Below are positions 8,796-51,965 of a DNA stretch of 64,000 bases, piece after piece. Position 1 is the stretch's first letter; each line of letters starts with the position of its first letter. The DNA is taken from the NCBI GenBank assembly GCA_963799845.1, contig CAWCYI010000007.1, positions 1 to 64,000 on the forward strand, in the 5' to 3' direction. The notes beneath the pieces are model-generated. The model ran no database searches, had not been told where the DNA came from, and saw only the letters and a list, made by a program, of their open reading frames with translations. Position numbers and translations under genes: made by a program. The stretch comes from an uncultured Nitrososphaerota archaeon. Its GTDB lineage: Archaea > Thermoproteota > Nitrososphaeria > Nitrososphaerales > CADDZS01.

Positions 8796-8846
8796 GGTGC
8801 AAATCCCATCCCCTCCACACCTACCTAGGTTCTTATTTACACCTCC
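8796..8846 (+). other. attL-like site: tRNA 3'-end-like fragment (core CCATCCCCTCCAC, 8806-8818) plus arm
   Basis: GGTGCAAATCCCATCCCCTCCAC resembles a T-loop plus acceptor strand; arm 8815-8846 is an inverted copy of the motifs at 26340 and 51918; lies 3 bp before the integrase ATG. Confidence 0.7.
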
Positions 8847-8849
8847 AAA

Positions 8850-10036
8850 ATGACTTCTAGCCTGATGCAGGCTGGCGCCATAGCGGAACCGACTCTAAAT
8901 ATTCCCCAGGAAGAGGAGGCTGTAACGATGTTCAAAGCGGGCCATCGGTCTCCTCAAACTCTCGACCACAACCAACGCTTCCTAAATTATTTCGTCAAAG
9001 CCTTCCTGAAAATGTCCTCACAGGAATTTGTGGATAGAACCCGGCATGATTTGAAATGGGGAGAGGCGAGGAATGCAGCGTACTTCATCACGATCAAAGG
9101 CCGCGTTCAACGGAAGGAAATCGAATCGGATAGTGTTCACAACTTCCGGGACCCGATCAAAATCCTGTGCGACATGAATGACCTCTCCCTTAATTGGAAG
9201 AGGTTGGATAAGATCCTCCCCGCCAGACGTCGCAAGGCATTCAAAGGAGTGGCTGCCCCAAAAGAAACTCTGCGAACACTTTGCTCGTATCCCGATAGGA
9301 GAATGAAGCCGATTGTTACGACGATGACAAGCGGAGGCCCTTCGCGTGGGTGTGTGGGACTACCTTTCTGTTGGTGATCTAGAACCGGCTTATCTGAATG
9401 GGAAGCTAGTCGAGGGAAAGCTGACGGTTTATCGTGGTGAACCCGAAGAATATCCCACTAGGATTTCTCTCGAGGCATATAATTTTTGGATGCAGAATTT
9501 TGATGAACGCAGACAGGCGGGGGAAGATGTCAAGCCGGACTGTCCGCTCGCTCGCGATCTCTGGACTGGTGACCGTACTGGAAAGGGCATTGCACGATTT
9601 CCAAAACGACTGAAGAGGTACTGGAGTGAAACGACTCTTGGAGGATGCGTGGGGGGCCTTTCCCAATTTACGAAAAAAGAAACCCGGCACGAAGAAGTAC
9701 GACATCAAAGCAACCCACTTTGGTAGGAAATACTTCGAGACTGGGGCGCTGAAAGCTGGGCTCGAGCCCTGGCAAATCAAAATTTTCCGAGGTGACATCC
9801 TCCCAACTGATCTTGGCTACGAGGGCTTTACAGAGGAAGAATTGACTGCCCTTCACCTGAAAGCCGACCCAGAGCTCGTCATCTTCGATTCTCTGGTACC
9901 AGATTCCGGGGAAGTCGAAGACCTTCGAAAAGAGGTTGGGAGTCTAAAGGAGAAACTCAATCGGAATGAGGAGCTAATGCAGCAGGTCCTTGCGAAGCTC
10001 AAAGAGTCGGAACAAGAACGAGAGAAGGGAAATTAG
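8850..10036 (+). CDS. Tyrosine recombinase/integrase, two frameshifts (ORFs 8850-9377, 9346-9726, 9626-10036)
   Basis: MTSGG.R(+fs)GVWDYL; KLTVYRGEPEEY; ATHFGRKYFET (HxxR); C-terminal Tyr region and coiled-coil tail. Confidence 0.85.
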
Positions 10037-10463
10037 TCAGAGTAGCACTTGTTGATAGAATATACATTTACGTAAAGCTGCCTTCGAAGGAGATTATTTT
10101 GCATAAATGACGCAATACAAAATGCTCCTATTTTTGAACCGAGATAGGAGCGATCCCGAAAGGATTCGCTATGCCATGATCGGGCCACTGTCAGGCAGAT
10201 TTTGTGAAATTATAAGTAACGACATGCACTCCGAGCGGAGTTCTTGTAGAACTTTGTTAGAGTTCTGACCAAGTAGTCTTTACTCTCCAGGAACTCTTTC
10301 GCAAGTTCGGTAGTAGGATCTGCCATGATCGGAACGGTTAACAGAGGACCTAAAAAAGATGTGGTTGGAGAGAAGTTGTTGTAGGTCTCTCACTCAACGC
10401 ATTGAAAGCCATGACCTCAGTTTGGCAAATCGTAATAAGTATCATCGAATTCTAATGTTCTAT

Positions 10464-10560
10464 ATGCGATTAGATTATTTTCGGGTCAAAAATCTTCTTT
10501 CATTTTCAGAAAATGGTGCGGAGATTGGTGGTTTCGATAATTACAATGTGATAGTAGTCC
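10464..10560 (+). pseudogene. N-terminal remnant of an AAA/OLD-like ATPase
   Basis: MRLDYFRVKNLLSF...FDNYNVIV; homology ends just before the expected Walker A. Confidence 0.45.
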
Positions 10561-11686
10561 AATTTACTGGCGACTGCCAGAACGGCTTGATCGATATCCC
10601 GCCCTCTTCTAGGACATTTCAGGGGTTTTTTCTAAAATGTCCTATCTATGAGAAAACCTCCCATAATCATCTCACTCTCACGAAAGAGTACAATCGAAGT
10701 TTGTCACAGATCTACCAAACTAGATTTATCTGGAATTACACCAATTGACTTTTGTTGTCATTTACACCATACTTAGAAAGTGATGAAATGGAACGATCAC
10801 ATTAGGTAATGCAAAATGCACCAATGCCGACAATGGCATTATAGTAAGAGGTACTTCTAAGACTAACTGTTCCATTCATTACTTTTCTTAAACTCGGTAA
10901 AAACTTGTCAAGGTCAGTTTGCTCCAATTTTGGACTGAATAGGGTTGAGGAAAATTAGCACTAAAATTGGTTGTTCCATTCATCGCTTTCTGATTAGGAA
11001 TCTGCTTTTTGAAAATACAACACACAGGAAGAATCCCAGCACAGTTATGCAAGAATCCGACACCTGGCAACCTCCTATTTTGGAGGCTGGGAAGATAAGA
11101 AAAGTTAAGCCGGTTTAGATCAGGAACAATTTTTGTAGAGGGTTCCTGATCGTAACGTCTACTTCGATTTTTTTCTTTTGATTTTAGGAAATTTATCGAG
11201 CACGAGATTAGGAGCTTCGCCACGAATTATTCCTTGGAGACTTTGGAGAAATGCAAGCGTGGTCCTTTCGTCATATCCAAGATTTTGCGATATCCCCTTT
11301 AGAGTCCTGGGCCTCCGCATCCTGTTTATCTTACTCTTTATCCACTTCAATGTGTCTTCACTGAAAATGTAATCACCGAGAACATCGAATTTGTTATTCG
11401 CGAACTCCGCGATCTTCTCTGGTGGAATCCCAGACACTTGAGATAATTCCTGCAGCGAGACAAAGTAACCGATCTCACCAAACGGCAGTGGGTTCCTCTT
11501 TTTCTCGTCTGAAGATTCTCACCTCTCTTCATTGTTCTTGGCGAATCGTGCATTCAAGCGCCCGTTGGCGGTCTCCATTTTTTTCGGATTTCTTTGTTTA
11601 GCCCACAAGTAAGAGACTATGCTGTTGAGGCATTCGGCATAGGAATTATAGAAAGCGGGATAACCATACTTTTAGCGCGCGCGCGC

Positions 11687-11938
11687 GGATTATCCGGGGC
11701 CTTCCAAATGGGGTTCAGCCACGGGATCTTTTGCGTGGGCTGTTGCTGGGCCTATATGCTAGTCATGCTTGCCGTAGGGGCTATGGGTATTCCGATAATG
11801 GCGGCTCTAACCGGAATGATTGCTCTAGAAAAAGTGGTGGTGCGCGGATCCGTCTGGTTTACGAGGATCGTTGCAATTGGGTTCATTGCCTTAGGAGTTC
11901 TAGTAGGATTGTTTCCGGTTCTCCTGTCGTACCTCTAG
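11687..11938 (+). pseudogene. C-terminal fragment of DUF2182 metal-binding membrane protein
   Basis: GAFQMGFSHGIFCVGCCWAYMLVMLAVGAM...ALEK; N-terminus absent. Confidence 0.75.
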
Positions 11939-11985
11939 GTTTCCATTTCCTAATCCAAATTCTCGTTACGGGTTTGGGATTGGGC

Positions 11986-12040
11986 TTACTAGTAAATTGG
12001 GGTTCAAATCCCACATTTCGCCCATGGAATTTACTGGTAA
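11986..12040 (+). repeat. 55-bp hairpin repeat copy A
   Basis: TTACTAGTAAATTGGGGTTCAAATCCCACATTTCGCCCATGGAATTTACTGGTAA. Confidence 0.75.
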
Positions 12041-12183
12041 GAAATCTCTCTACTAAAAGCAATACTTGCAAAGAAAAACAAGATGTGGATGGACCATCCA
12101 ACCGCTTTGATTTCTATCACCTGCAACGCCTCCTTTTTCAAAATGATATAATAGGCAGAGAACATTTGTAGAATCCCTAACGA

Positions 12184-13528
12184 ATGATCGTCCCCGAGAC
12201 AAAGTACGCTAAGATAGACGATGTCCACATCGCCTACCAAATCTTCGGAAGTGGTTCGATTCCTGTGGTTGTGGCCCCCGGCTGGACGTCACATATTGAA
12301 TATGCTTGGGAGGAACCCTCTTACGCACACTTCCTCGAGCGATTAGGATCCTTTGCGCGTGTGGCCTGGTTTGACAAGAGGGGAAACAGGCCTCTCTGAC
12401 AAAGTGAAGGATCTTCCAACACTTGAACAGAGGATGGACGACATTAGGGCAGTAATGCAAGCTGTGGGATTCGAGAAAGCAGCTGTGTTCGGGATCAGCG
12501 AGGGTGGTTCGATGTGCGCATTGTTTGCCGCAACCTATCCTCAGAGGACGACAGCGTTGATACTTTATGGCGCGTTCGCAAAAAGGCTTTGGAGCGAAGA
12601 TTACCCGTGGGCTCCAACTCTGGAAGAAAGGGAAAAGTGGATCGAGAGTCTAGAGAGCGGGTGGGGCGGGCCGGTGGAGATTTCCGATTTGGCTCCATCC
12701 GTCGCACATGAAGAACATTTCGTGAAGTGGTTCACAACCTACGGAAGGTTGAGCGCCAGCCCTTCGGCAGCGGTAGCACTCGCAAGGATGAACACTTACA
12801 TCGACATACGAAACGTCCTACCTTCCATCCATGTGCCGACCCTTGTTATGCATCGGAGAGGAGACAGGGACTCCAGTGTCGAAAACGGCAAGTATCTTTC
12901 ACAAAACATTCCGGGAGCCAAATTCGTCGAACTAGAGGGCGAAGATCATATCCCTTGGGTGGGAGACTCAAATGCAATCGTCGACCAAATCGAAGAATTT
13001 CTTACAGGTATGAGATCGGAGAACTCGTCAGATCTGAACGAAAGAGTACTTGCTACAATTCTTCTAACTGATATTGTGGGTTCAACTGAAAAGGCAAACC
13101 AGCTTGGCGACAAAGGCTGGAAGAGTTTGATCACTAAGCACAACGAGATAATACGAAAGGAGCTCGAACGTTTCAACGGGAGGGAAATAAAATCAACCGG
13201 CGATGGATTTCTTCTGACGTTCGACGGCCCCGCTCGCGCCATCAAGTGCGCCTGTTCAGTCCGGGACAGGATTCGTAGTCAATTGGGAATTTCGATAAGA
13301 GCAGGGATACATACGGGTGAGTGCGAATTGATCGGCGAGAATGACATTGGTGGAATGGCCGTCCACATAGCTTCGAGGGTTGAATCGTTTGCAAAGCAAG
13401 ACGAAGTTTTGGTGTCGAATACGGTCAAAGATCTCGTTTCCGGCTCCGGGATAAAATTTAGCGATCTTGGCTTGCACACTTTGAAGGGGATACCAGAGCA
13501 GTGGAGGCTGCTCAAGGTCTTGAATTGA
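12184..13528 (+). CDS. Alpha/beta hydrolase - class III adenylate/guanylate cyclase fusion (LipJ-like), frameshift near 12380
   Basis: HIAYQ, FDKRG(TG)LSD, GISEGG; ATILLTDIVGST, TGDGFL, RAGIHTGECE, VHIASRV. Confidence 0.9.
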
Positions 13529-13920
13529 AAGTGGGATCCTACTTTATTCATTGAGTTTTCTTGTTTTATTCTTCTTGGCACAGCGAACATTTTTCGTCTT
13601 GTACTTCTTATTTGCAGAGTCCTTTCTCATCCGGAATAATGACGCCGCTACCGCTACAGTACTACTTCTTGTTCCTGTTTCCGATATATTCCGAGCTTTA
13701 ACCATGACACTTTTGTTCCAACGGATTGTACACAGGTATAAATAGAACTACGTCATGGGGGAACGAAACGTGCCAGGGGGTAGATTTCATAATGATAAAT
13801 TTTGACAGCCTTGTGATCCTTGTGATCGGAGTCGGCGGCCTTGTTATCGGCAGTGGCGGTTTGGTCTACGTTATCAAAAAACAGCAACGCAGCCAGATGG
13901 AGAGGTGAAAGGTCGATAAA

Positions 13921-14422
13921 ATGAAGATAATTCTAACGAGAACGGTTTTGATTCTTGCCCTTGTAATGATGCTCTCGGGGAGTCTTGTAACGTACGCTGC
14001 AACCACCCTTTTCACGCAAACGTTCCCAGCTGAAACGTTTGCCACTGCTTCCCTAAACGTAGGATCGAAATGCAGCGGCGGGGACCTGGTCCTAGTGCCG
14101 GCAGATAGTACCGTTCCAAACTCAGCAGGTCAGTATGCAGCTCTTGAGTTTGCGTGCGACAGCACAGGTGACGCGGCATTCACTAGTACCTGGGACGACA
14201 AGTACTACTGTGACAGTCACTCCGACATTTACTCTTCCAAGTGGGTGGAATTTCTTTGTCGGTCCACAGAATTCTCCCACCACAATTGCTTGCTCAAACG
14301 TGGAGTATGAGCCCACTAGCGGGTCTCCAGTGACTCTGACAGGCGGCACCTCCTACGCGTACTGTCTAACTTCAACAAGCGCCTCCAGTTTCAGCTCGTT
14401 CACCGTAACTTGGTCGCAGTAA
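13921..14422 (+). CDS. Secreted Cys-containing protein, frameshift near 14190
   Basis: Signal peptide; paralog of 14580..15128 (PTF.LP.GW, YCLT.TSASSFS.F...WS). Confidence 0.65.
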
Positions 14423-14579
14423 ATCCCCTTCGAGTCGTTGAGAATTACGACGATGAAGCTCCAGCTTTTCTTTGGGCTTCAGGGATAATTTAGCTGACAT
14501 CAGCGATTTGTCACATGCAGCTATATATCACAGAATCTGACTTTGAATTCCATACGCAAGAATCCCCACGAAGTACCGA

Positions 14580-15128
14580 TTGGCGGTGAAAAGCAAGATG
14601 CTTGTAAAAAGAAGCCTGTTGGTGGTTTTCGTATTTACGATGATTTTGGGATTATCTCTTGAAGTTTTTGTTTTTTCAAATTCTCCCATGCTTCTATCCA
14701 GCTTTGCAGCTTCTGATCAGATAGTCTACAACTCTATGCCGAGTGCTTCTTCACCTCCGCAATTGTTGAGCGGATGTAGTCGTATGACATTGAACGTCCA
14801 TCAAAGTAAGATTCCTTCTTTTTCAGGCAGACCGGCTGTCCTGGTCTTCGGGTGCGGACGAGGCGGCAATCTTCCGGCCCTTTTGACGGTTGGCTCGCGA
14901 CATAGCTCACTCACGTTTGTTCCGACCTTTAGCTTGCCCTTTGGCTGGAGTCTCGGAATTGCAAGAGTACAACCTTCGATGGAGTGTTCCTCTTCTTCAC
15001 CTAGCCGGCTGCTCGAGTTAACAAGCGGAGGACCGGCAACATTGACCCCTCTGACTCAATATATCTATTGTCTCACAGCAACAAGCGCTTCGAGCTTTTC
15101 GACCTTTTCAATTGCCTGGTCCAGCTAG
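14580..15128 (+). CDS. Secreted protein, paralog of the upstream gene
   Basis: N-terminal hydrophobic segment; shared C-terminal motifs. Confidence 0.65.
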   Translation: MAVKSKMLVKRSLLVVFVFTMILGLSLEVFVFSNSPMLLSSFAASDQIVYNSMPSASSPPQLLSGCSRMTLNVHQSKIPSFSGRPAVLVFGCGRGGNLPALLTVGSRHSSLTFVPTFSLPFGWSLGIARVQPSMECSSSSPSRLLELTSGGPATLTPLTQYIYCLTATSASSFSTFSIAWSS

Positions 15129-15442
15129 AATGCTCTAAAGAAGATCAAAAAGCGTTGGCCAAATTTGGCTGATCTTTATCTTTGGCTGGGCCTTGTTAGC
15201 GGCAGCTTTGACAGCGGTACCCGAGTTCTCTTCTTGGGCTACAGCCCAATCTATATGGTCCATGTAAACCTTTTTAAAATTGGTATCGTTGTAGTTGAAG
15301 AGCGTCAATTACCTGAAAACCCTTCTACTTCCCTGGAAGATTTCCTAACTGCGAACAGTTAATGGTACGCCTGTCTTCCTCAGAGCTATTGAACCGCCAT
15401 CTAATACCATATTCTCTTCGGTAGACTTGTATTGGTTTATAG

Positions 15443-16567
15443 CTAGTGCCGTGTCCATAAAGGTCGTCTGAGTTTCCTCCTCCCATCCTTTCTTCTTGCT
15501 TGCGTATCTCTGAACCTTTTGCCTCTTGCCCTCCTTTCGATGTTACGATAGCTCACTGCTTTTTGGAAAGCTCTTCCAACCTCATCCCAGCTCTTGTAAT
15601 TGGTTCCGCTCAAGGCAAGCTTCTGTATGTCGCCCGTGTGGCACTCGACAGGATTCATCCAGCTCGCATTCGTCGCTGTTGGAACGAGTGCTGTATTGGT
15701 GGAATGAGCCCATCTTCGAATGTCAGGAGTCCAGTGAGCTCTAAAACCGTCCTGTATCATGTACACCCTTTCATCAAGAGGATATTTTGATCTCTCGCCT
15801 TTCAAGAACTCTAGCCACGGTTTTCCTCCCTTGTGAGCATACTGATCTATGCTCAAGCGCTGGTGGTAGACGTTCAGGCAAACGTATTCGTATCTCGCAC
15901 CTCCAAACTTGTTGTAGTTTGCTGGAATCCTTTCTGGGGCGGATTGCTCAAACCATCCTCTTCCTCCATGAGGAACGAGATTGAACGGACCCATCTCATC
16001 GAGGCTAAGTACCACGGGAGGATTCGATTTCTTTCGCGTCAATCGCTCTATGCGAGCTTTCTTTTTCTCAAATTCAGGATCTTGTGATTCCTTCCACGTC
16101 TTCACGCTCTGGAAGCTGATGTCTGACTCATCCAGTATTATTCGGAGCCATTCCTTGCTGATCGAATCCACTAGCCCCCTCTTCTCAGCCTCGGTCTTTA
16201 GACGACGCAGGCTCCACTGCTGGAATGGCAGTCCGAGATTCTTGGGCTGACTCGTTGCAAGAGAGACGAGCTTTGCCTTCTGTTCGGGAGTGAATTTCCT
16301 GTTTCCTCCAGGCTTCCAGTGAGGCTTCAGCATCGCCAGCCCTTCCTCATTGAAAGATTTGATCAACGACCTAACATAATCCTGACTCATCATCACAATC
16401 TCTCCTATCTTTGGAGGAGTGAATCCCTGAGCGCTAGAAAGTACGACCTGAGCTCTTCTCATCTCTATTGGATCCTTGCCGTAACGTCCTATCTGTCTGA
16501 GCTTGTTCCCCTCCTCATTCGTTATGCTGCGAACATGGACTACCATGTTCGAAGACGAACATGACAT
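15443..16567 (-). CDS. IS630-family transposase
   Basis: HTH N-terminus, WSLRRL, SLDEMGP, IQDGFRAH, ASWMNPVE (DDE); stop codon uses the target TA. Confidence 0.92.
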   Translation of the reverse strand: MSCSSSNMVVHVRSITNEEGNKLRQIGRYGKDPIEMRRAQVVLSSAQGFTPPKIGEIVMMSQDYVRSLIKSFNEEGLAMLKPHWKPGGNRKFTPEQKAKLVSLATSQPKNLGLPFQQWSLRRLKTEAEKRGLVDSISKEWLRIILDESDISFQSVKTWKESQDPEFEKKKARIERLTRKKSNPPVVLSLDEMGPFNLVPHGGRGWFEQSAPERIPANYNKFGGARYEYVCLNVYHQRLSIDQYAHKGGKPWLEFLKGERSKYPLDERVYMIQDGFRAHWTPDIRRWAHSTNTALVPTATNASWMNPVECHTGDIQKLALSGTNYKSWDEVGRAFQKAVSYRNIERRARGKRFRDTQARRKDGRRKLRRPLWTRH

Positions 16568-16618
16568 GGCCTTAAATCTTCGCGTAAAAATCTAGAACAA
16601 GCTATCTGGCCGCGGCAC
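15446..16618 (-). mobile_element. IS630-family insertion sequence
   Basis: Ends GTGCCGTGTCCATA and (reverse complement) GTGCCGCGGCCAGA, flanked by a TA duplication in an AGCTAGCT target. Confidence 0.9.
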
Positions 16619-22178: not shown

Positions 22179-22186
22179 CTCTAATG

Positions 22187-42597: not shown

Positions 42598-42880
42598 TTG
42601 GCGAGTGACGTCGCAGCTCTAGGCGATCTGCGATTCCACGATCATATCAAGAAGATGGGGTTCACGGGAATATAAGAAAGGATATTCGAATTGGATGATC
42701 CTTAGTCGTCAAAAGAAATTCCTCAAAAAGAAATGAAAGCCTGTTTCAACTGTGACTAACGACTAGAAAGGCAAAGGGTCAGCACGTGTAAGTGGTGGGT
42801 TCACAAGAAGTTCCAGGTTATTTTCATCTCACTATCTCAACTTTTTTCTCTTCTCTGATAATCAGATTAAAGGGCTGCTT

Positions 42881-44160
42881 CTAGCCTCCTTCAGTGACTT
42901 GCTGGTTTCCCAGTCTCCGTTCGATATAACGCAACAATAATGGGGTTTGAAGAACGATAGACAAGAAGGCAACTCCCAAAACCATGCTCGTAATCACGTG
43001 AATGTCGGAGTCGGTTAGTACTGCGGATGCGGTCAAAGATGCCGCCAATGCAATTGAGAGCGCACCTCGTACTCCGCCCAGCATGGCAACATTGCTCCAA
43101 CTAATGGGAATCCTTTCTTCAATCTGGTTAAAGATTGCAAGTATTGGGTAAACTGAAGCTGCTCTTGCCACCGTCACTGCAAGATAGGCTGTGATTATCA
43201 AAAAAATGGATTGTGTGAACGTGACGAGGTTTGTCTCGAATCCTATCAGAAGGAACGCAACAGAGTTCCCAATGAAGGCTGCGATTTCCCAGAAGGTCAA
43301 GATTGCTTCTCTTGTCTCGGGAGCTATCGTCGCCTTCATCGTGACGTTTCCAAAATAAAGCCCGACGACTGCAACCGCGATCAGTCCAGAGGCTCCTATT
43401 CCAGAAGCTAAAATGTATGATCCGTAGACGGCTGTTATTGTCAGAATCACTTCAGTAATTTTGTCTTCTGTGACGGAACTGATGCTCTTCGCTCCATACG
43501 CAATCGCCAGACCAATTATCGTACCCCCTCCGATGCTGAAGCCGAAACTCAGAAAGTCGGAAAAAACCGGCACGTTTGTAAGGGTAATAGAGGATAGGAC
43601 GATTGTAAAAATTACAATTGCAGTGGCATCGTTAAAAGCAGCTTCTGTATCCATTAGGGCAGAAAGTCTTGGAGCAACGCTTGTACGGCGGAAGATTTCG
43701 AGGACGGTTACCGCATCAGTTGGGGCAATAATCGCCCCGAACAGCAGGGAAACGGAAAGCGACAAGCCTGATATTTGCCATAGAACCAATCCTCCAACTA
43801 GAGTCGCTATGACGACCCCTACAGTAGCGAGAACAAACGAAGGTCTGATCACCGCTCGCAAGTCGGGGGTGCGAATGTGAGTCATCGCTTCAAAGATCAG
43901 CGGAGGGACGACGATCCCGACGAAGAGTCCACCCTGTACAAGGCCGGTGTAAAAGATCTTATTTGCAAGATAGTCGTTAGCAGTGGGTCTGTGATTACGT
44001 TTGAACCTAGGAATGTAATTCCGGAGAAAGCGGTTATTCCAACTCCGATGAAGACCAGGATTACAGTGTATGGTAGTTTGGCTTTGACGGACAGAAGCTG
44101 CGAGGCGAGCATGACCACCAAGAATACGATGAGAATAATCTCAATGCTCGCAACGGCCAT
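42881..44160 (-). CDS. CPA1 (NhaP-like) Na+/H+ antiporter, frameshift near 43900
   Basis: LPYTVILV, GAIIAPTDAV, EAAFNDATA, GGVRGALSIALA. Confidence 0.88.
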
Positions 44161-44326
44161 GAATTTTTCAAATTGCCCTATACTACAATTAAGTTATCGA
44201 GTTATCTGGATCCGAAGAATAAATCCATCATTAACTGGGCCTCAAAACGTACCACTGTTCGTGGGATTGTGATGTGTCAGAGAATATCGATGTCATATTT
44301 GAAGATCAGACAGCGACGGAAATACT

Positions 44327-44720
44327 GTGGCTAGTGTGGGCTCGGATTCCGTAGGAAACTATTCAGCAACATTCCTAATTCGGCTGACGACAGCAGGGAA
44401 GCATAAAGTTGCCGCGACTGATGGAGTTAACAGCGCTACGGGAGTATACACTCTTGTTCCCAATCTAAGTCTGTCTCTAAAAAGCGCTAAAACCGGTAAG
44501 ATAGTTACAGAGACAGTCTCGGGAACTGGATACGCCGAAAAAATTCATTGGTCACAGTCTACATCAATGGAAGTCCCGTTGCAACGGCAACCACTGACGG
44601 CAATGGAGGCTTCACCTTTTCATTCACTGTTCCAATAGAAGTCGCTGGAAGCTACCCAGTGCAAGCAACTGACGCGAGTGGCAATACTAATTCCATTTCG
44701 CCCAGCTTTACATACAACTA
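44327..44720 (+). pseudogene. Fragment of an Ig-like repeat surface protein
   Basis: TTAGKHKVAATDG and a repeated ATATTDGNG...VQATD in another frame. Confidence 0.4.
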
Positions 44721-44746
44721 GAGAAAGACTCCCTAATCTCTGCAAT

Positions 44747-46108
44747 CTAAGACGATGATGCGAAGTATATCTGTGAGTTTGTTGTTGTTGTAGGCTGGTA
44801 CTGCCAGCATGCGAAAGCATCTGAGCCAAAGTTTACTACCCATCCAGTAGATACATCATTTGAAGTTGCAGCCGATCCAGTTGGATTGTTCGAGATGTTT
44901 ATCCCCGGTGGAGCTACCCAAGTAGTGCCTGCATTGGTGGAATCTGTCGCCATGGTATACCAGTGTCCACTGCTGACCTCCCTGCCCCAGATTGCGAACA
45001 CGTAATTTCCATAGGCAATGACATTCAGCGAGGTGCCGGTATTCACAGCCGCAGTTCCACTCTCAGATATAGGGCTGCTCCACGTCACCCCCGCGTTGCT
45101 AGATTCAATAATATAGTTCTGGGCTGCCGGAGATCCGGGATGCACTGTCACCGTGACGTAAACATTGTTCCCCCAGGCAGCGATCTTTGGACCCCACACA
45201 TCGGACAGAGATGGTGCCAGATTGATCTCACTAGACCAAGACAAACCGTTGTTGTGGCTGTATATCACGAAGGATTGACTCGTACTCCCCTTTGTCTCCC
45301 ACGTAACGTAAACATTCGAACCATATCCCCAGACCCAAGGTTCCGCACCGCAGCATCCTTTGATATGGAAGCTCTTCCAAGTAACTCCATCATTTTGCGT
45401 AACTGCTAACCCACCCGCGTCCGAGACTACTATTCCGGAGTTGGCCTCGGCATAAACCTGTGGCTCGTGGAAAGTAGAGACGTGGAAGGGAGAGGTCCAG
45501 TGAACGCCTCCGTCACTGCTCCCTATGACATAGGAATTTGCATTCTGGTCATAAGCAACGTACACAACATTTCCCCAGGAAGAAATGACTGGTGTGATCG
45601 ATCCGTTAATTCCGGTCGTGATCTGGATTGGGGTACTGAATGTTATTCCATAGTTAGTGCTCGCGGTGAAGAAGAGCTGTGGCTGGGAACCGCTTATTCC
45701 ATTGGTCCATGTGACGTAGACATTAGATCCGTTCGCGGATATAACAGGATATTGTGTTCCGAGCGTTCCGACATTCAGCTTTAAAGGTGCCGAGCTCAGA
45801 GGAGGGCTCCAAGTTGTTCCGTTGTCCGGGCTTGCCCTAAAAAATATCCCTCTGTTACCTTCAGTCCAGACGACGTAGACATGACTTCCAGAGTTGGCAT
45901 CCATGGGGAAGATTGCCATCCCTTTATCGTTGCTCAGGTTAAATGCGGCCGAAAAGACAGGTGCAGCAACTGCCGGACTCGTCGACGAGGCATACGCTGT
46001 TCCCAGAGATATTAGGGAAACTGCGAGAAAAAGCGAGACAAGACCTACCGAGATACGAACGAACCAGGTTGGTTTCAAACTCTTTTCTTGGTTTAACATT
46101 TTTTTCAA
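44747..46108 (-). CDS. Secreted Asp-box/BNR (sialidase-like) beta-propeller protein
   Basis: Signal peptide; S.DNG.TW repeats, NVYV.W; ends SQIYFASSS. Confidence 0.85.
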   Translation of the reverse strand: MKKMLNQEKSLKPTWFVRISVGLVSLFLAVSLISLGTAYASSTSPAVAAPVFSAAFNLSNDKGMAIFPMDANSGSHVYVVWTEGNRGIFFRASPDNGTTWSPPLSSAPLKLNVGTLGTQYPVISANGSNVYVTWTNGISGSQPQLFFTASTNYGITFSTPIQITTGINGSITPVISSWGNVVYVAYDQNANSYVIGSSDGGVHWTSPFHVSTFHEPQVYAEANSGIVVSDAGGLAVTQNDGVTWKSFHIKGCCGAEPWVWGYGSNVYVTWETKGSTSQSFVIYSHNNGLSWSSEINLAPSLSDVWGPKIAAWGNNVYVTVTVHPGSPAAQNYIIESSNAGVTWSSPISESGTAAVNTGTSLNVIAYGNYVFAIWGREVSSGHWYTMATDSTNAGTTWVAPPGINISNNPTGSAATSNDVSTGWVVNFGSDAFACWQYQPTTTTNSQIYFASSS

Positions 46109-46198
46109 TAATTCCTTTGAGCTTCAATTCGACGCCCCGATTCACATAGCGAGACGCTGATCATGAACACAAATTCGGGAAAAATACCCGACCTATTT

Positions 46199-46225
46199 AT
46201 CTCTAGTATGTCGAAATCTGATAAT
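46199..46225 (+). promoter_or_regulatory. Conserved upstream motif shared with 51312-51338 and 47976-47993
   Basis: ATCTCTAGTATGTCGAAATCTGATAAT vs reverse complement ATCTCCATTATGTCGAAAGCCGATATT (22/27). Confidence 0.55.
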
Positions 46226-46300
46226 ACTGGACTTTTGGTTTTCCATTTTGTGGCAATCGTTGCAATCAATAAATAGAATTTGACACTGTGAACCAAATCC

Positions 46301-47743
46301 TTGTCTACATTCGAGAGATTCAATCCAAATAAGAAAACTTTCTTGATGATTTCAACTGCGCTGGTTTTGGGGCTACTTTTCATTTTGCCATCAGTCTGCG
46401 TGGGAGCTTTCGCGTCGTCTGCCGCGAGTCCACCAGTCTTCAACTCCGCGATCAACCTGAGCAACGATGCAAGTATTGCAAAGGATCCGGCCGTATCAAA
46501 CAACGGACAGAACGTCTACGTTGTGTGGTCGGAAGGAGCAAAGGGAGTTTTCTTCAGAGTCAGGACAGACGGTGGAAGCACCTGGACGCCACCGACCACC
46601 CAGAGTGCGCTAAAGATCAGTAACAAGGGATCGGGCGCGGCTTCGTTCCCGGTAATGTTCACCCAGTACCAGTCGGTGAACACCGGCGATGTGTACGCAG
46701 CGTGGGCTCAAGGGCAGCAAGTGTACGTCGCCGCTAGCACAAACAACGGTATAAGTTTCAAGACAACCCAACTCAGCCTATCGACCTCAGGCGGTCCCGC
46801 CGAGATTCCCTCGATTGCAGCTTCCGGCTCCGATGTCTACGTCGCCTGGTATCAACCTCGTGGCTGCACTTACGCTTCGAGTGATGCGTGCATCTTCGTC
46901 TCTTACAGCAACGACAACGGTCAGACGTGGAGCGCCCCGATCTTCACCAATTCGGCGGATGGAGTCGGTGAAGAGGAAATTGTCGCCTCCGGTCACAACG
47001 CCTACCTGACCTCGGACGGCATTAATTTTGTAGCCACGTATAACGACGGACAGTCTTGGTCAAAGAGTGTCCTTCTCTACAACTCTTCTCTATTCCCGAA
47101 CTGCTCCCCGTTTTGCTTCGGACGAGAGCCATGGATTGCAGCTGATGGACTCAACGTCTACGTGACGTGGGAGGGAAGCAACCCACAACAGACAACAGGT
47201 ACCAAGACAGACTACCTCGATTACGGACGGGTTAGCACCGATGGAGGACAGACTTGGAATCCACCACTTTCGCAGGCAATGCCGACAGTCCTTACCGGTT
47301 CAACGAGAAACGACTGGGAGCCGGAGAATGCGGCGTTTGGAACAAATGTTATCACAACATTCCACGATCTCGGCAACCAGGGGATCTACATGACCTCGTC
47401 GACAACTTCTGGATCTTCGTGGAGCACTCCGGTACTCGTCAGTCCACTCCACCTGAAGAGCTCGTATGCGCACGTCTACACATCTGACGGCGTGAACGAC
47501 TTTGTCATGTGGGGACAGCAAGTGTCCTCAGGATCCTCAACATGGAATGCATACATCGCATACAGCGGAGACAGTGGGGCTACCTGGAGTTCTCCGATAG
47601 ATATCAGCAACAACGCGAATGGGGTAGCAGCTGGCAACAAGGACGTTACACTGTTCGGATTGTCTAGCAATGGGGCAAACTGTTTTGCTGCGTGGACATA
47701 CACGAACGGCGCGACGAGCCAAATATACTTCGCCTCATCTTGA
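46301..47743 (+). CDS. Secreted Asp-box/BNR (sialidase-like) protein, paralog
   Basis: TDGGSTW, SNDNGQTW, SGDSGATWSSPIDISNN. Confidence 0.85.
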   Translation: MSTFERFNPNKKTFLMISTALVLGLLFILPSVCVGAFASSAASPPVFNSAINLSNDASIAKDPAVSNNGQNVYVVWSEGAKGVFFRVRTDGGSTWTPPTTQSALKISNKGSGAASFPVMFTQYQSVNTGDVYAAWAQGQQVYVAASTNNGISFKTTQLSLSTSGGPAEIPSIAASGSDVYVAWYQPRGCTYASSDACIFVSYSNDNGQTWSAPIFTNSADGVGEEEIVASGHNAYLTSDGINFVATYNDGQSWSKSVLLYNSSLFPNCSPFCFGREPWIAADGLNVYVTWEGSNPQQTTGTKTDYLDYGRVSTDGGQTWNPPLSQAMPTVLTGSTRNDWEPENAAFGTNVITTFHDLGNQGIYMTSSTTSGSSWSTPVLVSPLHLKSSYAHVYTSDGVNDFVMWGQQVSSGSSTWNAYIAYSGDSGATWSSPIDISNNANGVAAGNKDVTLFGLSSNGANCFAAWTYTNGATSQIYFASS

Positions 47744-48031
47744 GAGATGAGCGGAGGTCCTTTCTTTTTTCAATGTTCAAGATCTGAGAAATAAACTCTT
47801 CATCTTTTTGCTGAAAGAAGCGCCTTCGAAGAATAGTCTTGGAAATATCTTGCTGAGCTATCTTAGGTCTCACTTAAACTCCCAGACCCAGAAATCTGCT
47901 TCTCTGGATCGCATGTCGTAAGAGGGATTTGGTCTTTTCCCTTTTTTTGCAGGATCATGCAAAGCATATTCCCGTATTATCTAATTTCGATATGAGCTTA
48001 TGAAACGTGGAATCGGAGAGAAAGATTATTT

Positions 48032-48724
48032 TTGGGTGATTGTCTAACATTAAGTGTCCAGTTGCCATTGCCTTCTCCTCTTCCTCATCTGAGCGGTATC
48101 CAGTCGAGAATCCTGCTAGTCGTTTTTCAGTCTGGACAACAATTCGTAAGCAACGAAGATGTGATGAAGTCGGGTGTCGGGCACTCTGCGTGGTCCGAAG
48201 AGCAAAAGAAACTCATTGAATTGCGATTGTTGGAAAAAAGGTCTCTTCGTGTAATAAGAGGAAGGAGCGTTTGCAAGACTGTCAGCTATAAGCTCACGGA
48301 TAAGGGCCGGGCCGTTGCCTTCAACCTTTCTTGCATTTCAAAGATGATTTCTTCTCCGGAAATGTCAGAAAAACTGAATCTGCGGACTTTGAGCAGGGTA
48401 GAACTTGAAAACGAGATCATAGAATCAATCGAAGTTGCTTTAGATAGTTTTGGGATAAATCTGCTACCTCTCGTCAAGGGCATTATCGAAGATGAAGGAA
48501 GCCGTCGCTGGAAAGAAGTGATTCACGACAGTCAGCAGTTGATTACAACTCTCAGAGGTTTATTTGGTCAGTCTGGAGCCAGCACCATTGAATCGATGGT
48601 TGTTGATAACTTGAAATCTCGTTTTGACTTCGAATCGAAGGAAAATGACCTAAACAATTTGATATCTGAGCTCAAACAGAAAAATTCTGCAGGACAACTT
48701 TCGCAAACGGTTTTTGAAGTCTGA
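48032..48724 (+). CDS. Winged-helix regulator with C-terminal thaumarchaeal output-like domain
   Basis: SYKLTDKGRAVA wing; LRGLFGQSGASTIESMVVDNL. Confidence 0.6.
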   Translation: MGDCLTLSVQLPLPSPLPHLSGIQSRILLVVFQSGQQFVSNEDVMKSGVGHSAWSEEQKKLIELRLLEKRSLRVIRGRSVCKTVSYKLTDKGRAVAFNLSCISKMISSPEMSEKLNLRTLSRVELENEIIESIEVALDSFGINLLPLVKGIIEDEGSRRWKEVIHDSQQLITTLRGLFGQSGASTIESMVVDNLKSRFDFESKENDLNNLISELKQKNSAGQLSQTVFEV

Positions 48725-48742
48725 AAAAAGTGGTGAGTACCC

Positions 48743-49150
48743 ATGTCTTTCGACATTTCTGAAATCGCAATTCTTCCATCTCCATCAACGATCCTGGTCG
48801 CCCTCGATCTCGCCACCGTTTTTGCAACAATTGGTCTCGGATATTACGCTGTGAAAATTTTCTTCCACATGCGACTGGGTAGATTAGAGAATGGTTGGAA
48901 AATGGTTACACAAGGAATTATTTCTCTATGTTTCGGATTCCTCTTTTTGACTTTTCAGCACGTGATTCCTCGTGAATCGAATTTGTACTTCTATCTTGAT
49001 GCCGTCGGCACGTTTCTGAGCATTATAGGAATAGTACTAATGATGATGGGTCTGCGTTCGCATTACCTTGTGTGGACAAGAAAGAAATCTTCTGCACATA
49101 TCTCTAGCAATGATGAACGGCAAACGAGCAGTGACATTTCCCTAACTTGA
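48743..49150 (+). CDS. Small multi-pass membrane protein
   Basis: Three hydrophobic segments; GRLENGWK. Confidence 0.6.
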   Translation: MSFDISEIAILPSPSTILVALDLATVFATIGLGYYAVKIFFHMRLGRLENGWKMVTQGIISLCFGFLFLTFQHVIPRESNLYFYLDAVGTFLSIIGIVLMMMGLRSHYLVWTRKKSSAHISSNDERQTSSDISLT

Positions 49151-49790
49151 AGGAATCCTGCGTGTAACCGATCTTCTGACTTGTTGAAAAGCCCAATGAT
49201 CTCACGATGTTGGAAGAGCCCATGATTTGATTTCATATATTTTATCAATACGTCCTAAGTAGGGATCCAACCAGGGCAAACATTCAATTTCTCAGATATG
49301 GACTGTTCAGCTTGTGCTCTGTTGAATTTCATAGGTTAACGTTTATCAGAAGAATTGCAGAAAATGTCGACTCGAAAAGAGAAATTGTCTACAGATACCA
49401 TTGGAATTGACGAAGCGATAGCTAGGGTAAGTGAGATAGCAAATCGATTGAATAATGTGCCTCGAAAGGGGAAGTAGAAGTGGAGGCGCTGGAAATCGAA
49501 TCGTCGATAACACGATCTTGGGACCAGACATGGGATTACTCAAGCCACTATGGAATGATGAGTACCATGATGTCAGGTTGTCTGTATTCGTATACAATGA
49601 TGCGCTCATGGTATCCTAGGCACGCAAGAGTAGCTGAGCGGATGGTCTTCGAACCCTGCGACTTTCTTTCTTCATCCAGTTTTGGATAGCCATTATCACA
49701 TCTGATAATCGTATTGGTTTCTTATATAACTCGTATTCGTTAAGATCAGAAACAAAAGAGGAAAAGGAGGTGTAATTCTCCTCCTAAATG

Positions 49791-51221
49791 CTAAGATCCT
49801 GCGAAGTAGATTTGGGAAGTACCCGCGTTGCTCAGGCTCCAAATCGCATAGCAGTGTGTGCCTGAAGTCGAAAGATTTGACGAAGTTACATCTGTGTTGG
49901 GTCCGGCAACACCGTTTGCATTGTTACTGATGTCAATCGGAGAACTCCAAGTAGTTCCTCCGTCGCCGCTGTACGCGATGTACTGGTTCCAAGTGGATGA
50001 TCCTGACTTTACCTGCTGCCCCCACATGACGAATACGTTCACTCCATCGGATGTGAAGATATGTCCAAACGAGCTCTTCAATTTGGTTGTGCTAAGCAGT
50101 ACTGGAGTACTCCAGCTGGGAGACTCAGTATTGACGTTGATAGCTTCAGTCACGTAAATTCCTTGGTTTGAAATGACATGGAATGTCTCGAAGAGGCTGC
50201 TTCCGTACGCGGCATTCTCCGGCTCCCAGCTGTTCTTGATGGCATCGGTCAGGTTCTGTATAGCTCCCCACGTTTTTCCTCCATCCATACTTGTAACTGA
50301 TTGGTCGTGATAACCAACTCCCGGTGTCGTACTGTTTGCTTCCCAAGTCACGTAAACTTGGTTCCCCCACGCTGCAATCCATGGTTCGCGTCCAACGTAG
50401 TACGAAGTCGTAGTGTTAGCCGGGTTATAGAGGTTGATTTGCGGCGACCAGGAAGCCCCCGAATCGTAGGTGGCAGTATAGTAGATACCATCAGCAACCA
50501 GGTACGCGCTGTTGCCGTATGCCACGATTTGCGATTCACCTGCATACGACGGATTTACAATGCCTAGAGGTGCGCTCCATGTAGTGCCGTTGTTGGTGGA
50601 AGAGGAGACATCAATGCCACCAGGTAAGACGTAATGCCCGCCACCGGCAGAGAACCAAGCAACGTACACGTTGCTCCCCCACGCAGATATTGTCGGAGTG
50701 TTCTGGGCGTTGGTTGAGTTGTGACTCAGCTGAGTAAGCTTGAATGAGAGCCCGCTATTATTGCTCACGGCTACGAAGATTTGTGATACCAAGGAACCAT
50801 TCGCCTGTTTCACTCCTTGGGTCCAAGCGACGTAGACATCTCCGCTGTTTACCCCCTGGTACTGAGTGAACATTACTGGAAACGAAGCACTTCCTCCGCT
50901 CCTACTCAGTTTCAAAGCTGGAGAAGATAGAGACGGGGTCCAAGTGTTTCCGCCGTCAGTGCTCATCCTAAAGAATAAACCTTTGCTCCCTTCGACCCAC
51001 GCCGCATAAACATTGAGTCCCTGGCTAGAAATAACTGGATTCTTTGCGTTTCCCAGATCATCACTCAAATTCACTGCAGGGCTGAAAGTTGGCGCGGTAC
51101 TAGTCGAAGCAGAAGCAAACATAGTGATCCCGCCCGCCGAAAGAATTAGGGTTAGCGCAAATGCCAAGCAAAGTACAGGGGAAGCTTTTCCAAATTTCTT
51201 GATTGAAAATCCATACTTCAT
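49791..51221 (-). CDS. Secreted Asp-box/BNR (sialidase-like) protein, paralog
   Basis: Shares ASFPVMFTQYQ, GREPWIAA, WEPENAA and SSPIDISNNANGVA with 46301..47743. Confidence 0.85.
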   Translation of the reverse strand: MKYGFSIKKFGKASPVLCLAFALTLILSAGGITMFASASTSTAPTFSPAVNLSDDLGNAKNPVISSQGLNVYAAWVEGSKGLFFRMSTDGGNTWTPSLSSPALKLSRSGGSASFPVMFTQYQGVNSGDVYVAWTQGVKQANGSLVSQIFVAVSNNSGLSFKLTQLSHNSTNAQNTPTISAWGSNVYVAWFSAGGGHYVLPGGIDVSSSTNNGTTWSAPLGIVNPSYAGESQIVAYGNSAYLVADGIYYTATYDSGASWSPQINLYNPANTTTSYYVGREPWIAAWGNQVYVTWEANSTTPGVGYHDQSVTSMDGGKTWGAIQNLTDAIKNSWEPENAAYGSSLFETFHVISNQGIYVTEAINVNTESPSWSTPVLLSTTKLKSSFGHIFTSDGVNVFVMWGQQVKSGSSTWNQYIAYSGDGGTTWSSPIDISNNANGVAGPNTDVTSSNLSTSGTHCYAIWSLSNAGTSQIYFAGS

Positions 51222-51863
51222 AAATGAGATCAGAAGATCTCCTTCTATCTTCTCACAATAAATTACTTTGGAGCATTTCTGTAAAATGGAAGGAAATTAC
51301 ACAAACAGGGCAATATCGGCTTTCGACATAATGGAGATAGAATGATCGATTAACGACTCTAGATTTCGAGCGGATGAGCTGGGCATAGCTATCTAAAGCA
51401 AAAACATCGACTAAGAAGGACGGAAGCATCCTGAAATCATAGACCAGTCGCTTTTGAAAGAGTTTGAACGACTAGGGTAATGGAAATTATGAGGAACTTG
51501 ATCAGGGAATGTATTAGATGCAAGCAATTATGATGCTAAGATTACTCTGAATGCCAACAATATCTACATCGGTCGAACCGAACAAATCCATATCCAAATA
51601 AATGACACCGGAATAACTTCCACAGGACTAAATTTATTGACTATGCCAAAAAGCACAATTCGACGCTTCGACCTCGGAATCCGAGAGCCCACCATTGGGA
51701 AAATGCAGCCATAGGTAGCTCGGCAGCTGGTCTCTCGTTCACAGTCAACACTTTGGAAAACAAAATCGGATGTGAACTCTACATCCCTAGATCGAAAGAG
51801 CTCTATGAGCTTTCTCAACCAATACAAAGACCAGATAGAGAAAGAGATGGGGGAAAAGAGCGC

Positions 51864-51890
51864 GCGCGCTGCGGGGTCCCACGTTCCAAT
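51864..51890 (+). repeat. Partial hairpin repeat copy I
   Basis: TGCGGGGTCCCACGTTCC core. Confidence 0.6.
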
Positions 51891-51917
51891 CAGGCACGAG
51901 CGCAAGAATTTCGCAAT

Positions 51918-51965
51918 GGAGGTAACAAATTGAACCTAGGTGGTGTCAGATACCATCCCCTCCAC
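51918..51965 (+). other. attR-like right end of module 3
   Basis: GGAGGTAACAAATTGAACCTAGGTGGTGTCAGATA-CCATCCCCTCCAC; 13-bp core identical to 8806-8818. Confidence 0.8.

What the first reader, a model, noticed from the sequence alone, without database searches (positions are those of the whole stretch)
8796..51965. Tandem array of att-bounded modules behind one integrase (integron-like accretion platform)
Seen: the motif GGAGGTAAC-N5-GAACC-N12-(G/A)AT-N-CCATCCC occurs at 26340, 35384 and 51918, each with its core exactly 35 bp after GGAGG. The core matches 8806-8818 (13/13 at 51953). The arm is the inverse of 8815-8846 (CCACACCTACCTAGGTTCTTATTTACACCTCC) just before the integrase. Circularising a module would give a core flanked by inverted arms, i.e. 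an attP. The sites delimit units of about 17.6, 9 and 16.5 kb whose borders coincide with changes in gene content, and only the first unit has an integrase. Inference: integrase-less multi-gene cassettes are stacked at one site and mobilised in trans.
Basis: partly seen in the sequence, partly recalled or inferred. Interest (0 to 1): 0.85.

Follow-up and report, generated by a model that had tools for sequence, protein, structure and literature searches.

The report
Stacked genomic islands at a tRNA-Leu gene
This is a pile-up of mobile DNA islands inserted one after another at the end of a tRNA-Leu gene of a soil archaeon, where only one island keeps its integrase; this is a known way for genomes to collect foreign genes, not a new integron-like machine.

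Summary
The repeated motif is real and specific. It occurs 3 times in the window (0 of 100 shuffles gave a match) and 4 times in the 4.6 Mb genome. Among 400 other genomes of the order, 3 hold one copy each.

The 'core' is the 3' end of an intron-bearing tRNA-Leu gene. That gene sits intact on another contig (C8), directly before a second, unbroken copy of the integrase. The integrase is a divergent tyrosine recombinase: no Pfam hit of its own, conserved R..HxxR..Y, and XerA/Cre/IntI as best fold matches. Homologues lie directly behind tRNA genes in 23 of 37 archaeal loci examined.

Synteny with relatives places the tRNA's native upstream flank on C8 and its downstream flank on C7, right of 51,965. 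The array is therefore an insertion hot spot at tRNA-Leu. It also extends left of 8,806, where a second element family ends.

Modules 2 and 3 keep only a right arm plus core. Only circles that start at 8,806 (17.6, 26.6 or 43.1 kb) would rebuild a symmetric attP.

Best reading: tandem accretion of integrative elements, two of them decayed to integrase-less remnants like bacterial cis-mobilizable elements (CIMEs). Movement, if any, would be by hitch-hiking with module 1. It is not integron-like, and no excision joints were seen in read-derived contigs. It is a new member of a known kind.

The parts
1..8769 (.). Right-hand part of a further integrated element ('fam2' type), running off the contig start. 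Mostly ORFs without family hits.
   Evidence: 8 of 9 ORFs tested have no Pfam hit. 5961-7875 is 96% identical to C6:1625977-1627889, inside the fam2 element on C6.
8770..8801 (+). Right arm of the fam2 element (CCCTTCAGAACC-N13 before the core).
   Evidence: The same arm plus core occurs at C6:1641725-1641771. Its inverted copy GGTTCTGAAGGG follows the core at C6:1596102, in front of a distant integrase homologue.
8802..8818 (+). Core copy 0 (AATCCCATCCCCTCCAC), identical to the 3' end of the tRNA-Leu gene on C8.
8819..8846 (+). Integrase-proximal arm (arm'), the inverted repeat of the three distal arms.
   Evidence: 0 of 1000 shuffles reach the score. Conserved with few changes in two metagenomic relatives, L094 and L095.
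8850..10036 (+). Tyrosine-recombinase integrase, read in three frames here because of 1-nt insertions at 9338 and 9617.
   Evidence: The intact 394-aa copy is at C8:6586-7767. Fold and motifs.
8806..26374 (.). Module 1 (17.6 kb). Integrase, hydrolase-cyclase fusion, IS630-like element, AsnC-type HTH, NHL propeller, NIPSNAP, TPR and many unknown ORFs. No replication, conjugation or virion genes recognised.
15441..16625 (-). IS630-like insertion sequence (HTH plus weak DDE_3 match), multi-copy in the genome.
26340..26384 (+). Distal arm plus core copy 1 (core CCATCCCCTC), the right end of module 1.
   Evidence: A short-read contig spans 26243-27981 with 0 differences.
26375..35418 (.). Module 2 (9.0 kb, no integrase). 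N6/N4 DNA methylase, sugar-phosphate-isomerase-like TIM barrel, LRR gene split by IS66, thymidylate kinase, NrdD and NrdG.
   Evidence: No DNA match in 40 relatives except the IS66 and one 152-bp stretch.
29250..30761 (+). IS66-family insertion splitting an LRR gene. The insertion is polymorphic in the sampled population.
   Evidence: A contig in run X1 skips 29248->30756, with 8 letters fitting both sides.
35384..35430 (+). Distal arm plus core copy 2 (AATCCCATCCCATCC), the right end of module 2.
   Evidence: A contig spans 34030-35475 with 0 differences.
35419..51952 (.). Module 3 (16.5 kb, no integrase). Unknown 371-aa protein, TetR, DinB-family protein, ClC channel, P-type ATPase, Na/H exchanger, three BNR-repeat proteins.
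   Evidence: 35761-37440 and 38122-42589 have a 94-97% identical paralogue at C4:1961285-1969443.
51918..51965 (+). Distal arm plus core copy 3 (CCATCCCCTCCAC), the right end of the array.
   Evidence: The flank after it (TCCACTCCTTATTAGGGTC) is a partial inverted repeat of the inner arm; 0.002 of shuffles reach the score.
51966..64000 (.). Native chromosomal flank. DUF1801 protein, Y-family polymerase, aRF1, a class I aminoacyl-tRNA synthetase, AlaX-like protein.
   Evidence: aRF1 and the synthetase have no second close copy in the genome. A DUF1801 homologue lies 0.9 kb from the tRNA-Leu gene in relative G007.

Best explanation
The region is a tRNA-Leu integration hot spot holding a tandem array of integrative elements ('cryptic integrated elements'). 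Each element entered by tyrosine-recombinase crossover within CCATCCC, in the 3' end of the tRNA gene.

Each integration leaves a copy of the tRNA end (the core). It also leaves the element's own right arm (GGAGGTAAC-N5-GAACC-N12) at the far side, and the left arm plus integrase at the tRNA side.

Module 1 is a still complete element. Modules 2 and 3 are older elements of the same att type that have lost their integrase and left arm, like bacterial cis-mobilizable elements (CIMEs). The array continues to the left with an element of a second att type that uses the same core.

Shown here: the sites, their tRNA origin, the recombinase family, the empty state of the locus in relatives, and the asymmetry of modules 2 and 3.

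Inferred: the order of integrations, loss of the integrases by deletion, and any present-day mobility. If the integrase is active, the expected products are nested circles that all start at 8806 (modules 1, 1+2 or 1+2+3). That would carry modules 2 and 3 in cis, not as separate cassettes.
For: 1. Core equals tRNA end. On C8 the same 7.8 kb (window 8802-16621, 98.45% identical) follows an intron-bearing class II tRNA gene whose last bases are ...GGTTCGAATCCCATCCCCTCCA. Two metagenomic relatives with 63-69% identical integrases show the same tRNA end, arm' and integrase.
2. The locus is orthologous. The upstream flank of the tRNA in 6 of 6 relatives examined matches C8:8037-9433. Downstream, 3 of 3 relatives fetched are collinear with C7:74,025-88,851 and hold no convincing second core within 20 kb. 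The DNA right of 51,965 carries single-copy aRF1 and a synthetase.
3. Integrase. Invariant R165, H289, R292 and Y323 in 19 sequences. 5 of 19 family members hit PF00589. The AF2 model has pLDDT 83.7, and its best Foldseek matches are XerA, Cre and IntI.
4. A tRNA gene lies directly upstream of the homologue in 23 of the first 37 of 80 loci.
5. The inverted repeat with arm' is significant for arms c1, c2 and c3, but not for the DNA after cores 1 and 2.
6. The three distal arms differ in their inner halves, so they are separate ends, not recent duplicates.
7. A same-family genome (G012) has arm plus core at nearly the same spacing.
8. A second integrase lineage with its own inverted arms shares the core. 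It matches the family profile at hhalign probability 92.9% and PHROG 1 'integrase' at E 2.4e-5.
9. Both internal junctions are spanned by error-free short-read contigs.
10. In print: tandem arrays and integrase-less integrated elements in archaea and bacteria (passages read in PMC6563490, PMC8371274, PMC5704250, PMC3146451).
Against: - The tRNA gene and the array lie on different contigs. The junction at 8806 and the C8-C7 link were not checked with reads.
- It is unclear whether the genome holds two copies of the integrase segment or the assembler wrote one locus twice. The copies differ outside the IS by only 6 one-base indels and 2 substitutions in 6.6 kb. Their IS copies, however, differ by 106 substitutions and 18 indel columns.
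- No trace of a lost integrase was found in modules 2 or 3 (tblastn at E<=10).
- In both modules the homology to the attL side stops within a few bases of the core. That is tidier than random deletion would predict.
- Half of module 3 consists of genes that relatives also have (65-94% DNA identity) and that are duplicated on C4. It may therefore be captured host DNA rather than a former independent element.
- Module 2 carries the only NrdD and the only thymidylate kinase of this type found in the assembly, which is 87% complete. This suggests fixation.
Confidence: 0.75

Rival explanations
1. This is an integron-like platform in which integrase-less multi-gene cassettes, each bounded by att sites, are excised and re-inserted individually by one integrase acting in trans.
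For: Three units end in the same, exactly spaced arm plus core. Only one unit has an integrase. An intact copy of that integrase exists in the genome.
Against: - Circles of module 2 or module 3 alone would lack the second half of the inverted repeat (0.108 of shuffles reach the score for module 2, all shuffles for module 3).
- The sites are tRNA-derived direct repeats, not self-folding attC elements.
- The units are 9-17 kb with genes on both strands.
- The integrase lies inside a unit.
- No second copy of module 2 exists anywhere in the genome.
- The C4 paralogue of part of module 3 is not bounded by arm or core.
Confidence: 0.07
2. Modules 2 and 3 were never independent elements. They are host or foreign DNA that came to lie between attR-type scars, through repeated integration and imprecise or secondary-site recombination of elements of the module 1 type. 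This would be gene capture by the element, as in accretion-mediated capture.
For: The left half of module 3 has orthologues in most family members and a 94-97% paralogue on C4. No integrase remnant and no left arm is present. Homology stops right at the core on the left side of both modules.
Against: The three right arms differ from one another in their inner halves. This fits three different elements better than one element acting three times. Module 2 has no counterpart in 40 relatives apart from the IS66 and one 152-bp stretch, so it is imported DNA.
Confidence: 0.13
3. The array, or part of it, is an assembly artefact: a chimeric join or duplicated haplotypes of a metagenome-derived long-read assembly.
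For: The assembly has 1-nt indel errors that short-read contigs contradict at 25056, 36917 and 43950. The 7.8 kb around the integrase is present on two contigs, and one of them ends there.
Against: Independent short-read contigs span 26243-27981 and 34030-35475 without a difference. The arms and cores are distinct sequences, not collapsed repeats. An arm plus core is also found in another genome.
Confidence: 0.05

Closest known systems
Tandem accretion of integrative elements with cis-mobilizable elements (CIMEs), e.g. ICESt1/ICESt3-related islands of Streptococcus thermophilus (described in the review PMC5704250, passages read; the primary papers of Pavlovic 2004 and Bellanger 2011 were seen only as references)
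   Same: A site-specific integrase element sits in tandem with related units that have lost their integrase but keep att sequences at the 3' end of the same target gene. The expected mobility is co-excision of composites.
   Different: Archaeal host. No conjugation genes were recognised. The integrase-less units here keep only the right arm plus core, not a full attL/attR pair. No excision was shown.
Dehalococcoides ssrA genomic islands (PMC3146451, passages read)
   Same: Several tandem islands lie downstream of one small-RNA gene. Each ends in a direct repeat of its 3' end, preceded by a conserved element-borne motif. About half (15, against 16 with one) lack the integration module and were proposed to be cis-mobilizable.
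   Different: There the target is tmRNA and the integrase is a serine recombinase. Here the target is tRNA-Leu and the integrase is a tyrosine recombinase, in an archaeon.
Cryptic integrated elements and tandem iMGEs of Thaumarchaeota (PMC6563490, passages read; review PMC8371274, passages read)
   Same: tRNA genes, intron-bearing ones included, are used as targets. Att sites are short, cargo is metabolic or transport genes, and tandem integration at one site and integrase-less elements are reported.
   Different: A four-site array with a conserved 35-nt arm at fixed spacing, plus two integrase lineages sharing one core, was not in the passages I read. The supplementary tables of that paper could not be seen and may list similar cases.
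Integrons (IntI, attI, attC cassettes; features recalled, not taken from a call)
   Same: A tyrosine recombinase and a row of units separated by recombination sites. The IntI structure 2a3v is among the fold matches (rank 22).
   Different: No attC-like self-complementary sites, no fixed platform, multi-gene units with their own orientation, and tRNA-derived sites.

Membership tests
tRNA-targeting integrative element with tyrosine recombinase | Integrase with the tyrosine-recombinase fold and the catalytic R, H-x-x-R and Y residues | tested here: met
   R165, H289, R292 and Y323 are invariant in 19 sequences. 5 of 19 members hit PF00589. Foldseek top hits are XerA, Cre and IntI at E 8e-7 to 6e-5. 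The query itself has no Pfam hit, and a PDB sequence-profile search gave nothing relevant.
tRNA-targeting integrative element with tyrosine recombinase | Direct repeat of the tRNA 3' end at both ends, with the tRNA gene rebuilt at the integrase side | tested here: met
   C8 shows tRNA, core, arm' and integrase in order. Cores lie at 8806, 26375, 35419 and 51953. The same attL occurs in L094 and L095.
tRNA-targeting integrative element with tyrosine recombinase | Unoccupied target in related genomes, with conserved flanks | tested here: met
   Upstream flank conserved in 6 of 6 relatives. Downstream collinear with C7:74,025-88,851 in 3 of 3 fetched, with only 1-5 kb between tRNA and flank and no convincing second core. 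These relatives belong to other genera. Same-genus contigs were too short to tell.
Cis-mobilizable element (CIME) in an accretion | No integrase or transfer genes | tested here: met
   Modules 2 and 3: Pfam on 20 of their ORFs of 100 aa or more and tblastn with the integrase. The only recombinase-like gene is the IS66 transposase.
Cis-mobilizable element (CIME) in an accretion | Retains functional attL and attR | tested here: inconclusive
   Right arm plus core is intact in both modules. On the left only the core is kept, with no significant inverted arm. Function was not tested.
Cis-mobilizable element (CIME) in an accretion | Excises together with the neighbouring integrase-bearing element | not testable with these tools
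   Only assembled contigs of 4 runs could be laid, and these drop rare forms.
Integron | attC sites: imperfect palindromes that fold on one strand and bound each cassette | tested here: not met
   The sites are arm plus tRNA-derived core. The DNA right of cores 1 and 2 is not an inverted repeat of the arms.
Integron | Cassettes are mostly single promoterless genes in one orientation, downstream of a fixed intI-attI-Pc platform | tested here: not met
   The units are 9-17.6 kb with 8-18 ORFs on both strands. The integrase lies between two cores, inside unit 1.

The most novel reading that the evidence does not exclude
The array is a working gene-collecting device of a soil archaeon. One integrase pairs its single left site (8806) with any of three right sites. 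That would release nested circles of 17.6, 26.6 or 43.1 kb, each rebuilding a full attP, so earlier arrivals (an anaerobic ribonucleotide reductase set, ion transporters) are carried onward to new hosts in cis. Two integrase lineages with different arms compete for the same tRNA-Leu core.
Probability: 0.2. Interest if true: 0.55.

Novelty: new member of a known kind. Interest (0 to 1): 0.3.

Why it matters
It gives a clean, sequence-level example in a poorly studied group of soil archaea of how a tRNA gene becomes a collecting point for foreign genes. It defines the attachment architecture of an integrase family that Pfam does not recognise: a core in the tRNA end, and two-box inverted arms at fixed spacing. 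It also predicts which composite circles could form. That helps annotate islands in related genomes. It does not reveal a new kind of system.

Tried and rejected
**tRNA calling**
- ARAGORN and Rfam found no tRNA in the window.
- Both also missed the C8 tRNA because of its introns.
- Brute-force in-silico intron removal gave mostly Leu calls, but with varying anticodons. The anticodon CAA is my own reading of the conserved ACTCAAGA loop in 7 orthologues.

**Searches that added nothing**
- A profile search of PDB sequences gave only two spurious ribosomal-protein hits.
- The metagenome scan gave just two short loci.
- Two IMG/VR pattern scans gave 0 hits.
- No further att site was found between 51,966 and 80,000 of C7.
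- The contig of relative G012 that holds arm plus core has no protein-level match to this genome or to the relatives' flanks.

**Reads**
- Only contigs were available. They showed no skip or go-back joint at the cores, which says little about rare forms.
- The one 'goes back' joint (37436->26235) and the loose end at 35380 come from the C4 paralogue and from short dispersed repeats.
The junctions at 8806 and 51953 and the integrase frameshifts were therefore not checked against reads.

**Method notes**
- My first ungapped test of the inverted repeat was in the wrong register. It was replaced by the local alignment.
- An SSV-type integrase split by its own integration was considered. It was rejected because the C8 copy is whole and lies beside, not across, the att site.

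**Unpublished genome**
Genome G001 is unpublished.

Full report
**The observation**

The pattern GGAGGTAAC-N5-GAACC occurs three times in the window, at 26340, 35384 and 51918, all on the + strand. None of 100 shuffles gave a match. At each site CCATCCC begins 35 nt after GGAGG. The 13-mer at 51953 is identical to 8806-8818.

In the whole 4.6 Mb assembly (9 contigs; the window is C7:1-64000) the full motif is found only at these three places. The arm alone is found once more, at C6:1113745, where the core lies 10 nt further away.

In 400 other genomes of the same order the arm pattern was found once each in 3 genomes. A reversed control pattern gave 5 hits in the 401 genomes searched.

The units measure 17,569, 9,044 and 16,534 bp. 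The sites are intergenic.

**What the core is**

No tRNA is called in the window. A second copy of window 8802-16621 (98.45% identical) lies on contig C8 and runs to that contig's end. There the core forms the last bases of a 157-nt gene that begins GGAGGGG and ends GGTTCGAATCCCATCCCCTCCA.

ARAGORN and Rfam miss this gene. In this genome every Rfam tRNA hit but one is 90-141 nt long, that is, intron-bearing.

Orthologues of the gene exist in 9 of 12 other genomes of the family. Their alignment by eye shows conserved exons, variable inserts and a conserved ACTCAAGA loop. I read it as tRNA-Leu(CAA). Brute-force intron removal gave mostly Leu calls.

**The integrase**

In the window the gene 8850-10036 is broken into three frames. 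The C8 copy is one 394-aa frame. The two copies differ in this stretch only by single extra bases in short homopolymers at 9338 and 9617.

Short-read contigs contradict the window at other 1-nt indels (25056, 36917, 43950). The frameshifts may therefore be assembly errors, but I could not check them.

The protein has no Pfam or PHROG hit of its own. The evidence that it is a tyrosine recombinase:
- Its 22 database relatives align with invariant R165, H289, R292 and Y323.
- 5 of 19 aligned members hit PF00589.
- The AlphaFold model (pLDDT 83.7) matches XerA, Cre and IntI structures.

In GTDB genomes, 236 stretches encode relatives. The best 80 are 28-37% identical and come mostly from records named Nitrososphaerota/Thaumarchaeota, with some named Bathyarchaeota. 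In the first 37 of those 80 loci, ARAGORN finds a tRNA gene directly upstream of the integrase homologue in 23. One of those calls is dubious.

Two metagenomic relatives (63% and 69% identical) have the same tRNA-Leu end followed by a nearly identical left arm and the integrase.

**Where the array sits**

- The DNA upstream of the tRNA in 6 of 6 relatives examined matches C8:8037-9433.
- The 20 kb downstream of the tRNA in the 3 relatives fetched (G007, G008, G010, all of other genera) is collinear with C7:74,025-88,851. It starts 1-5 kb after the tRNA.
- Those stretches hold no convincing second core.
- In G007 a homologue of the first gene right of the array (window 52127-52537, DUF1801) lies 0.9 kb from the tRNA, in inverted orientation.
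- Right of 51,965 the window carries a Y-family polymerase, aRF1 and a class I synthetase. aRF1 and the synthetase are single-copy.

So the C8 tRNA and the C7 array belong to one locus that the assembly has split, and 51,965 is the array's right border.

**The array is larger than reported**

Left of 8806 lies CCCTTCAGAACC-N13-AATCCCATCCCC. The same arm plus core occurs at C6:1641725. Its inverted copy follows another core at C6:1596102, just before a 467-aa ORF.

That ORF matches the integrase family profile (hhalign probability 92.9%) and PHROG 1 'integrase' (E 2.4e-5). Position 8806 is therefore a junction between the right end of a second element type and the left end of module 1. Two integrase lineages use the same core.

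**Anatomy of the sites**

Joining arm and core from 26340 to the DNA after 8806 gives a long inverted repeat around CCATCCCC, with an outer box GGAGGT/ACCTCC, a GAACC/GGTTC box and an inner box GGTGTGGA/TCCACACC.

Local alignment against 1000 shuffles each:

| Pairing | Circle it would form | Shuffles reaching the score |
|---|---|---|
| arm c1 x right of 8806 | module 1 | 0 of 1000 |
| arm c2 x right of 8806 | modules 1+2 | 0 of 1000 |
| arm c3 x right of 8806 | modules 1+2+3 | 0 of 1000 |
| arm c2 x right of core 1 | module 2 alone | 0.108 |
| arm c3 x right of core 2 | module 3 alone | 1.0 |

The native flank after core 3 partly mirrors the inner arm (0.002 of shuffles reach the score), as expected of an attB half-site. 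The three distal arms differ in their inner halves.

**Content**

- Module 1: the integrase, a hydrolase-cyclase fusion, an IS630-like element, an HTH protein, NHL, NIPSNAP and TPR proteins, and many unknown ORFs.
- Module 2: a DNA methylase, a TIM-barrel enzyme, an LRR gene split by IS66, thymidylate kinase, and NrdD and NrdG.
- Module 3: a TetR regulator, a DinB-family protein, a ClC channel, a P-type ATPase, a Na/H exchanger and BNR proteins.

Module 2 has no DNA match in 40 relatives beyond the IS and one 152-bp stretch. The left half of module 3 matches family members at 65-94% and has a 94-97% identical paralogue on C4.

**Reads**

Four metagenome runs hold parts of the region. The best holder (0.91 of sampled words) may be the source sample. 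Only their contigs could be laid.

Contigs span 26243-27981 and 34030-35475 without a difference. One contig lacks the IS66. No joint lies at a core. The other joints and loose ends trace to the C4 paralogue and to dispersed repeats.

**Interpretation**

The anatomy fits the known process of repeated site-specific integration at a tRNA gene, followed by decay of older elements. It parallels the following cases:
- Accretion with cis-mobilizable elements in streptococci (PMC5704250).
- The ssrA islands of Dehalococcoides, of which 15 lack and 16 have an integration module (PMC3146451).
- Tandem and integrase-less elements reported for archaea (PMC6563490; PMC8371274).

A search for 'archaeal' together with 'cis-mobilizable' found 7 papers. 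None of the 6 listed titles concerns such an archaeal array. That is a weak statement about print.

The array is not integron-like (see the membership test). Mobility of modules 2 and 3 as separate cassettes is unlikely. Hitch-hiking in composite circles is possible but unshown.

**Verdict**

This is a new member of a known kind. Interest 0.3.

Noticed in passing
window 29250-30761: An IS66-family element splits an LRR gene (28700-29089 and 30720-31976). A contig in run X1 joins 29248 to 30756, with 8 letters fitting both sides, so the insertion is polymorphic in the sampled population. Near-identical copies (99.7-99.9%) lie at C6:152436 and C6:1602678.
   Followed up: partly
window 26235-26278; also about 20462, 22262 and 23871: A roughly 44-bp dispersed repeat occurs 4 times on C7, 5 times on C4 and 7 times on C6 (matches of 30 nt or more). 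One copy lies just upstream of the integrase homologue on C4 (C4:1973174). Its function is unknown.
   Followed up: partly
window 62976-63160: A roughly 170-bp strongly folding repeat (MFE -46.8 kcal/mol), MITE-like, has 12 further copies of 100 nt or more across C1, C3, C4 and C6, at 76-92% identity.
   Followed up: partly
C4:1959010-1974554 (outside the window): A second island-like region. It holds an IS66, a 94-97% identical paralogue of the module 3 genes (371-aa protein, TetR, ClC, P-type ATPase) and, 4 kb further on, a 426-aa integrase homologue (29% identical). Its att sites were not found.
   Followed up: partly
C6:1596102-1641771 and C6:1074374, C6:1113745 (outside the window): There are further copies of the tRNA-Leu core on the large contig C6. 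One is a 45.6-kb element bounded by core repeats with its own inverted arms and a distant integrase. One is a fam1-type arm plus core at 1113745. One is an inverted lone core at 1074374. None of these sits next to a tRNA gene.
   Followed up: partly
C3:7873-8532 (outside the window): A fragment of a related integrase (37% identical, 2 in-frame TGA) lies directly after a tRNA-Ala gene.
   Followed up: no
whole genome: ARAGORN finds only 9 tRNA genes and Rfam only 12 in 4.6 Mb, nearly all with inserts. Multi-intron tRNA genes such as the Leu gene on C8 escape both tools, so tRNA-based island finders would miss this locus.
   Followed up: partly
window 25056, 36917, 43950; 9338, 9617: Short-read contigs contradict the assembly at single-base indels at the first three places. 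Apparent frameshifts in this contig, such as those in the integrase at 9338 and 9617 or possibly those behind overlapping ORF pairs such as 11594/11731 and 17502/17797, may be assembly errors.
   Followed up: partly
window 31973-34779: Module 2 carries the only NrdD, and the only thymidylate kinase of this type, detected in the assembly (tblastn E<=1e-10; the assembly is 87% complete).
   Followed up: partly
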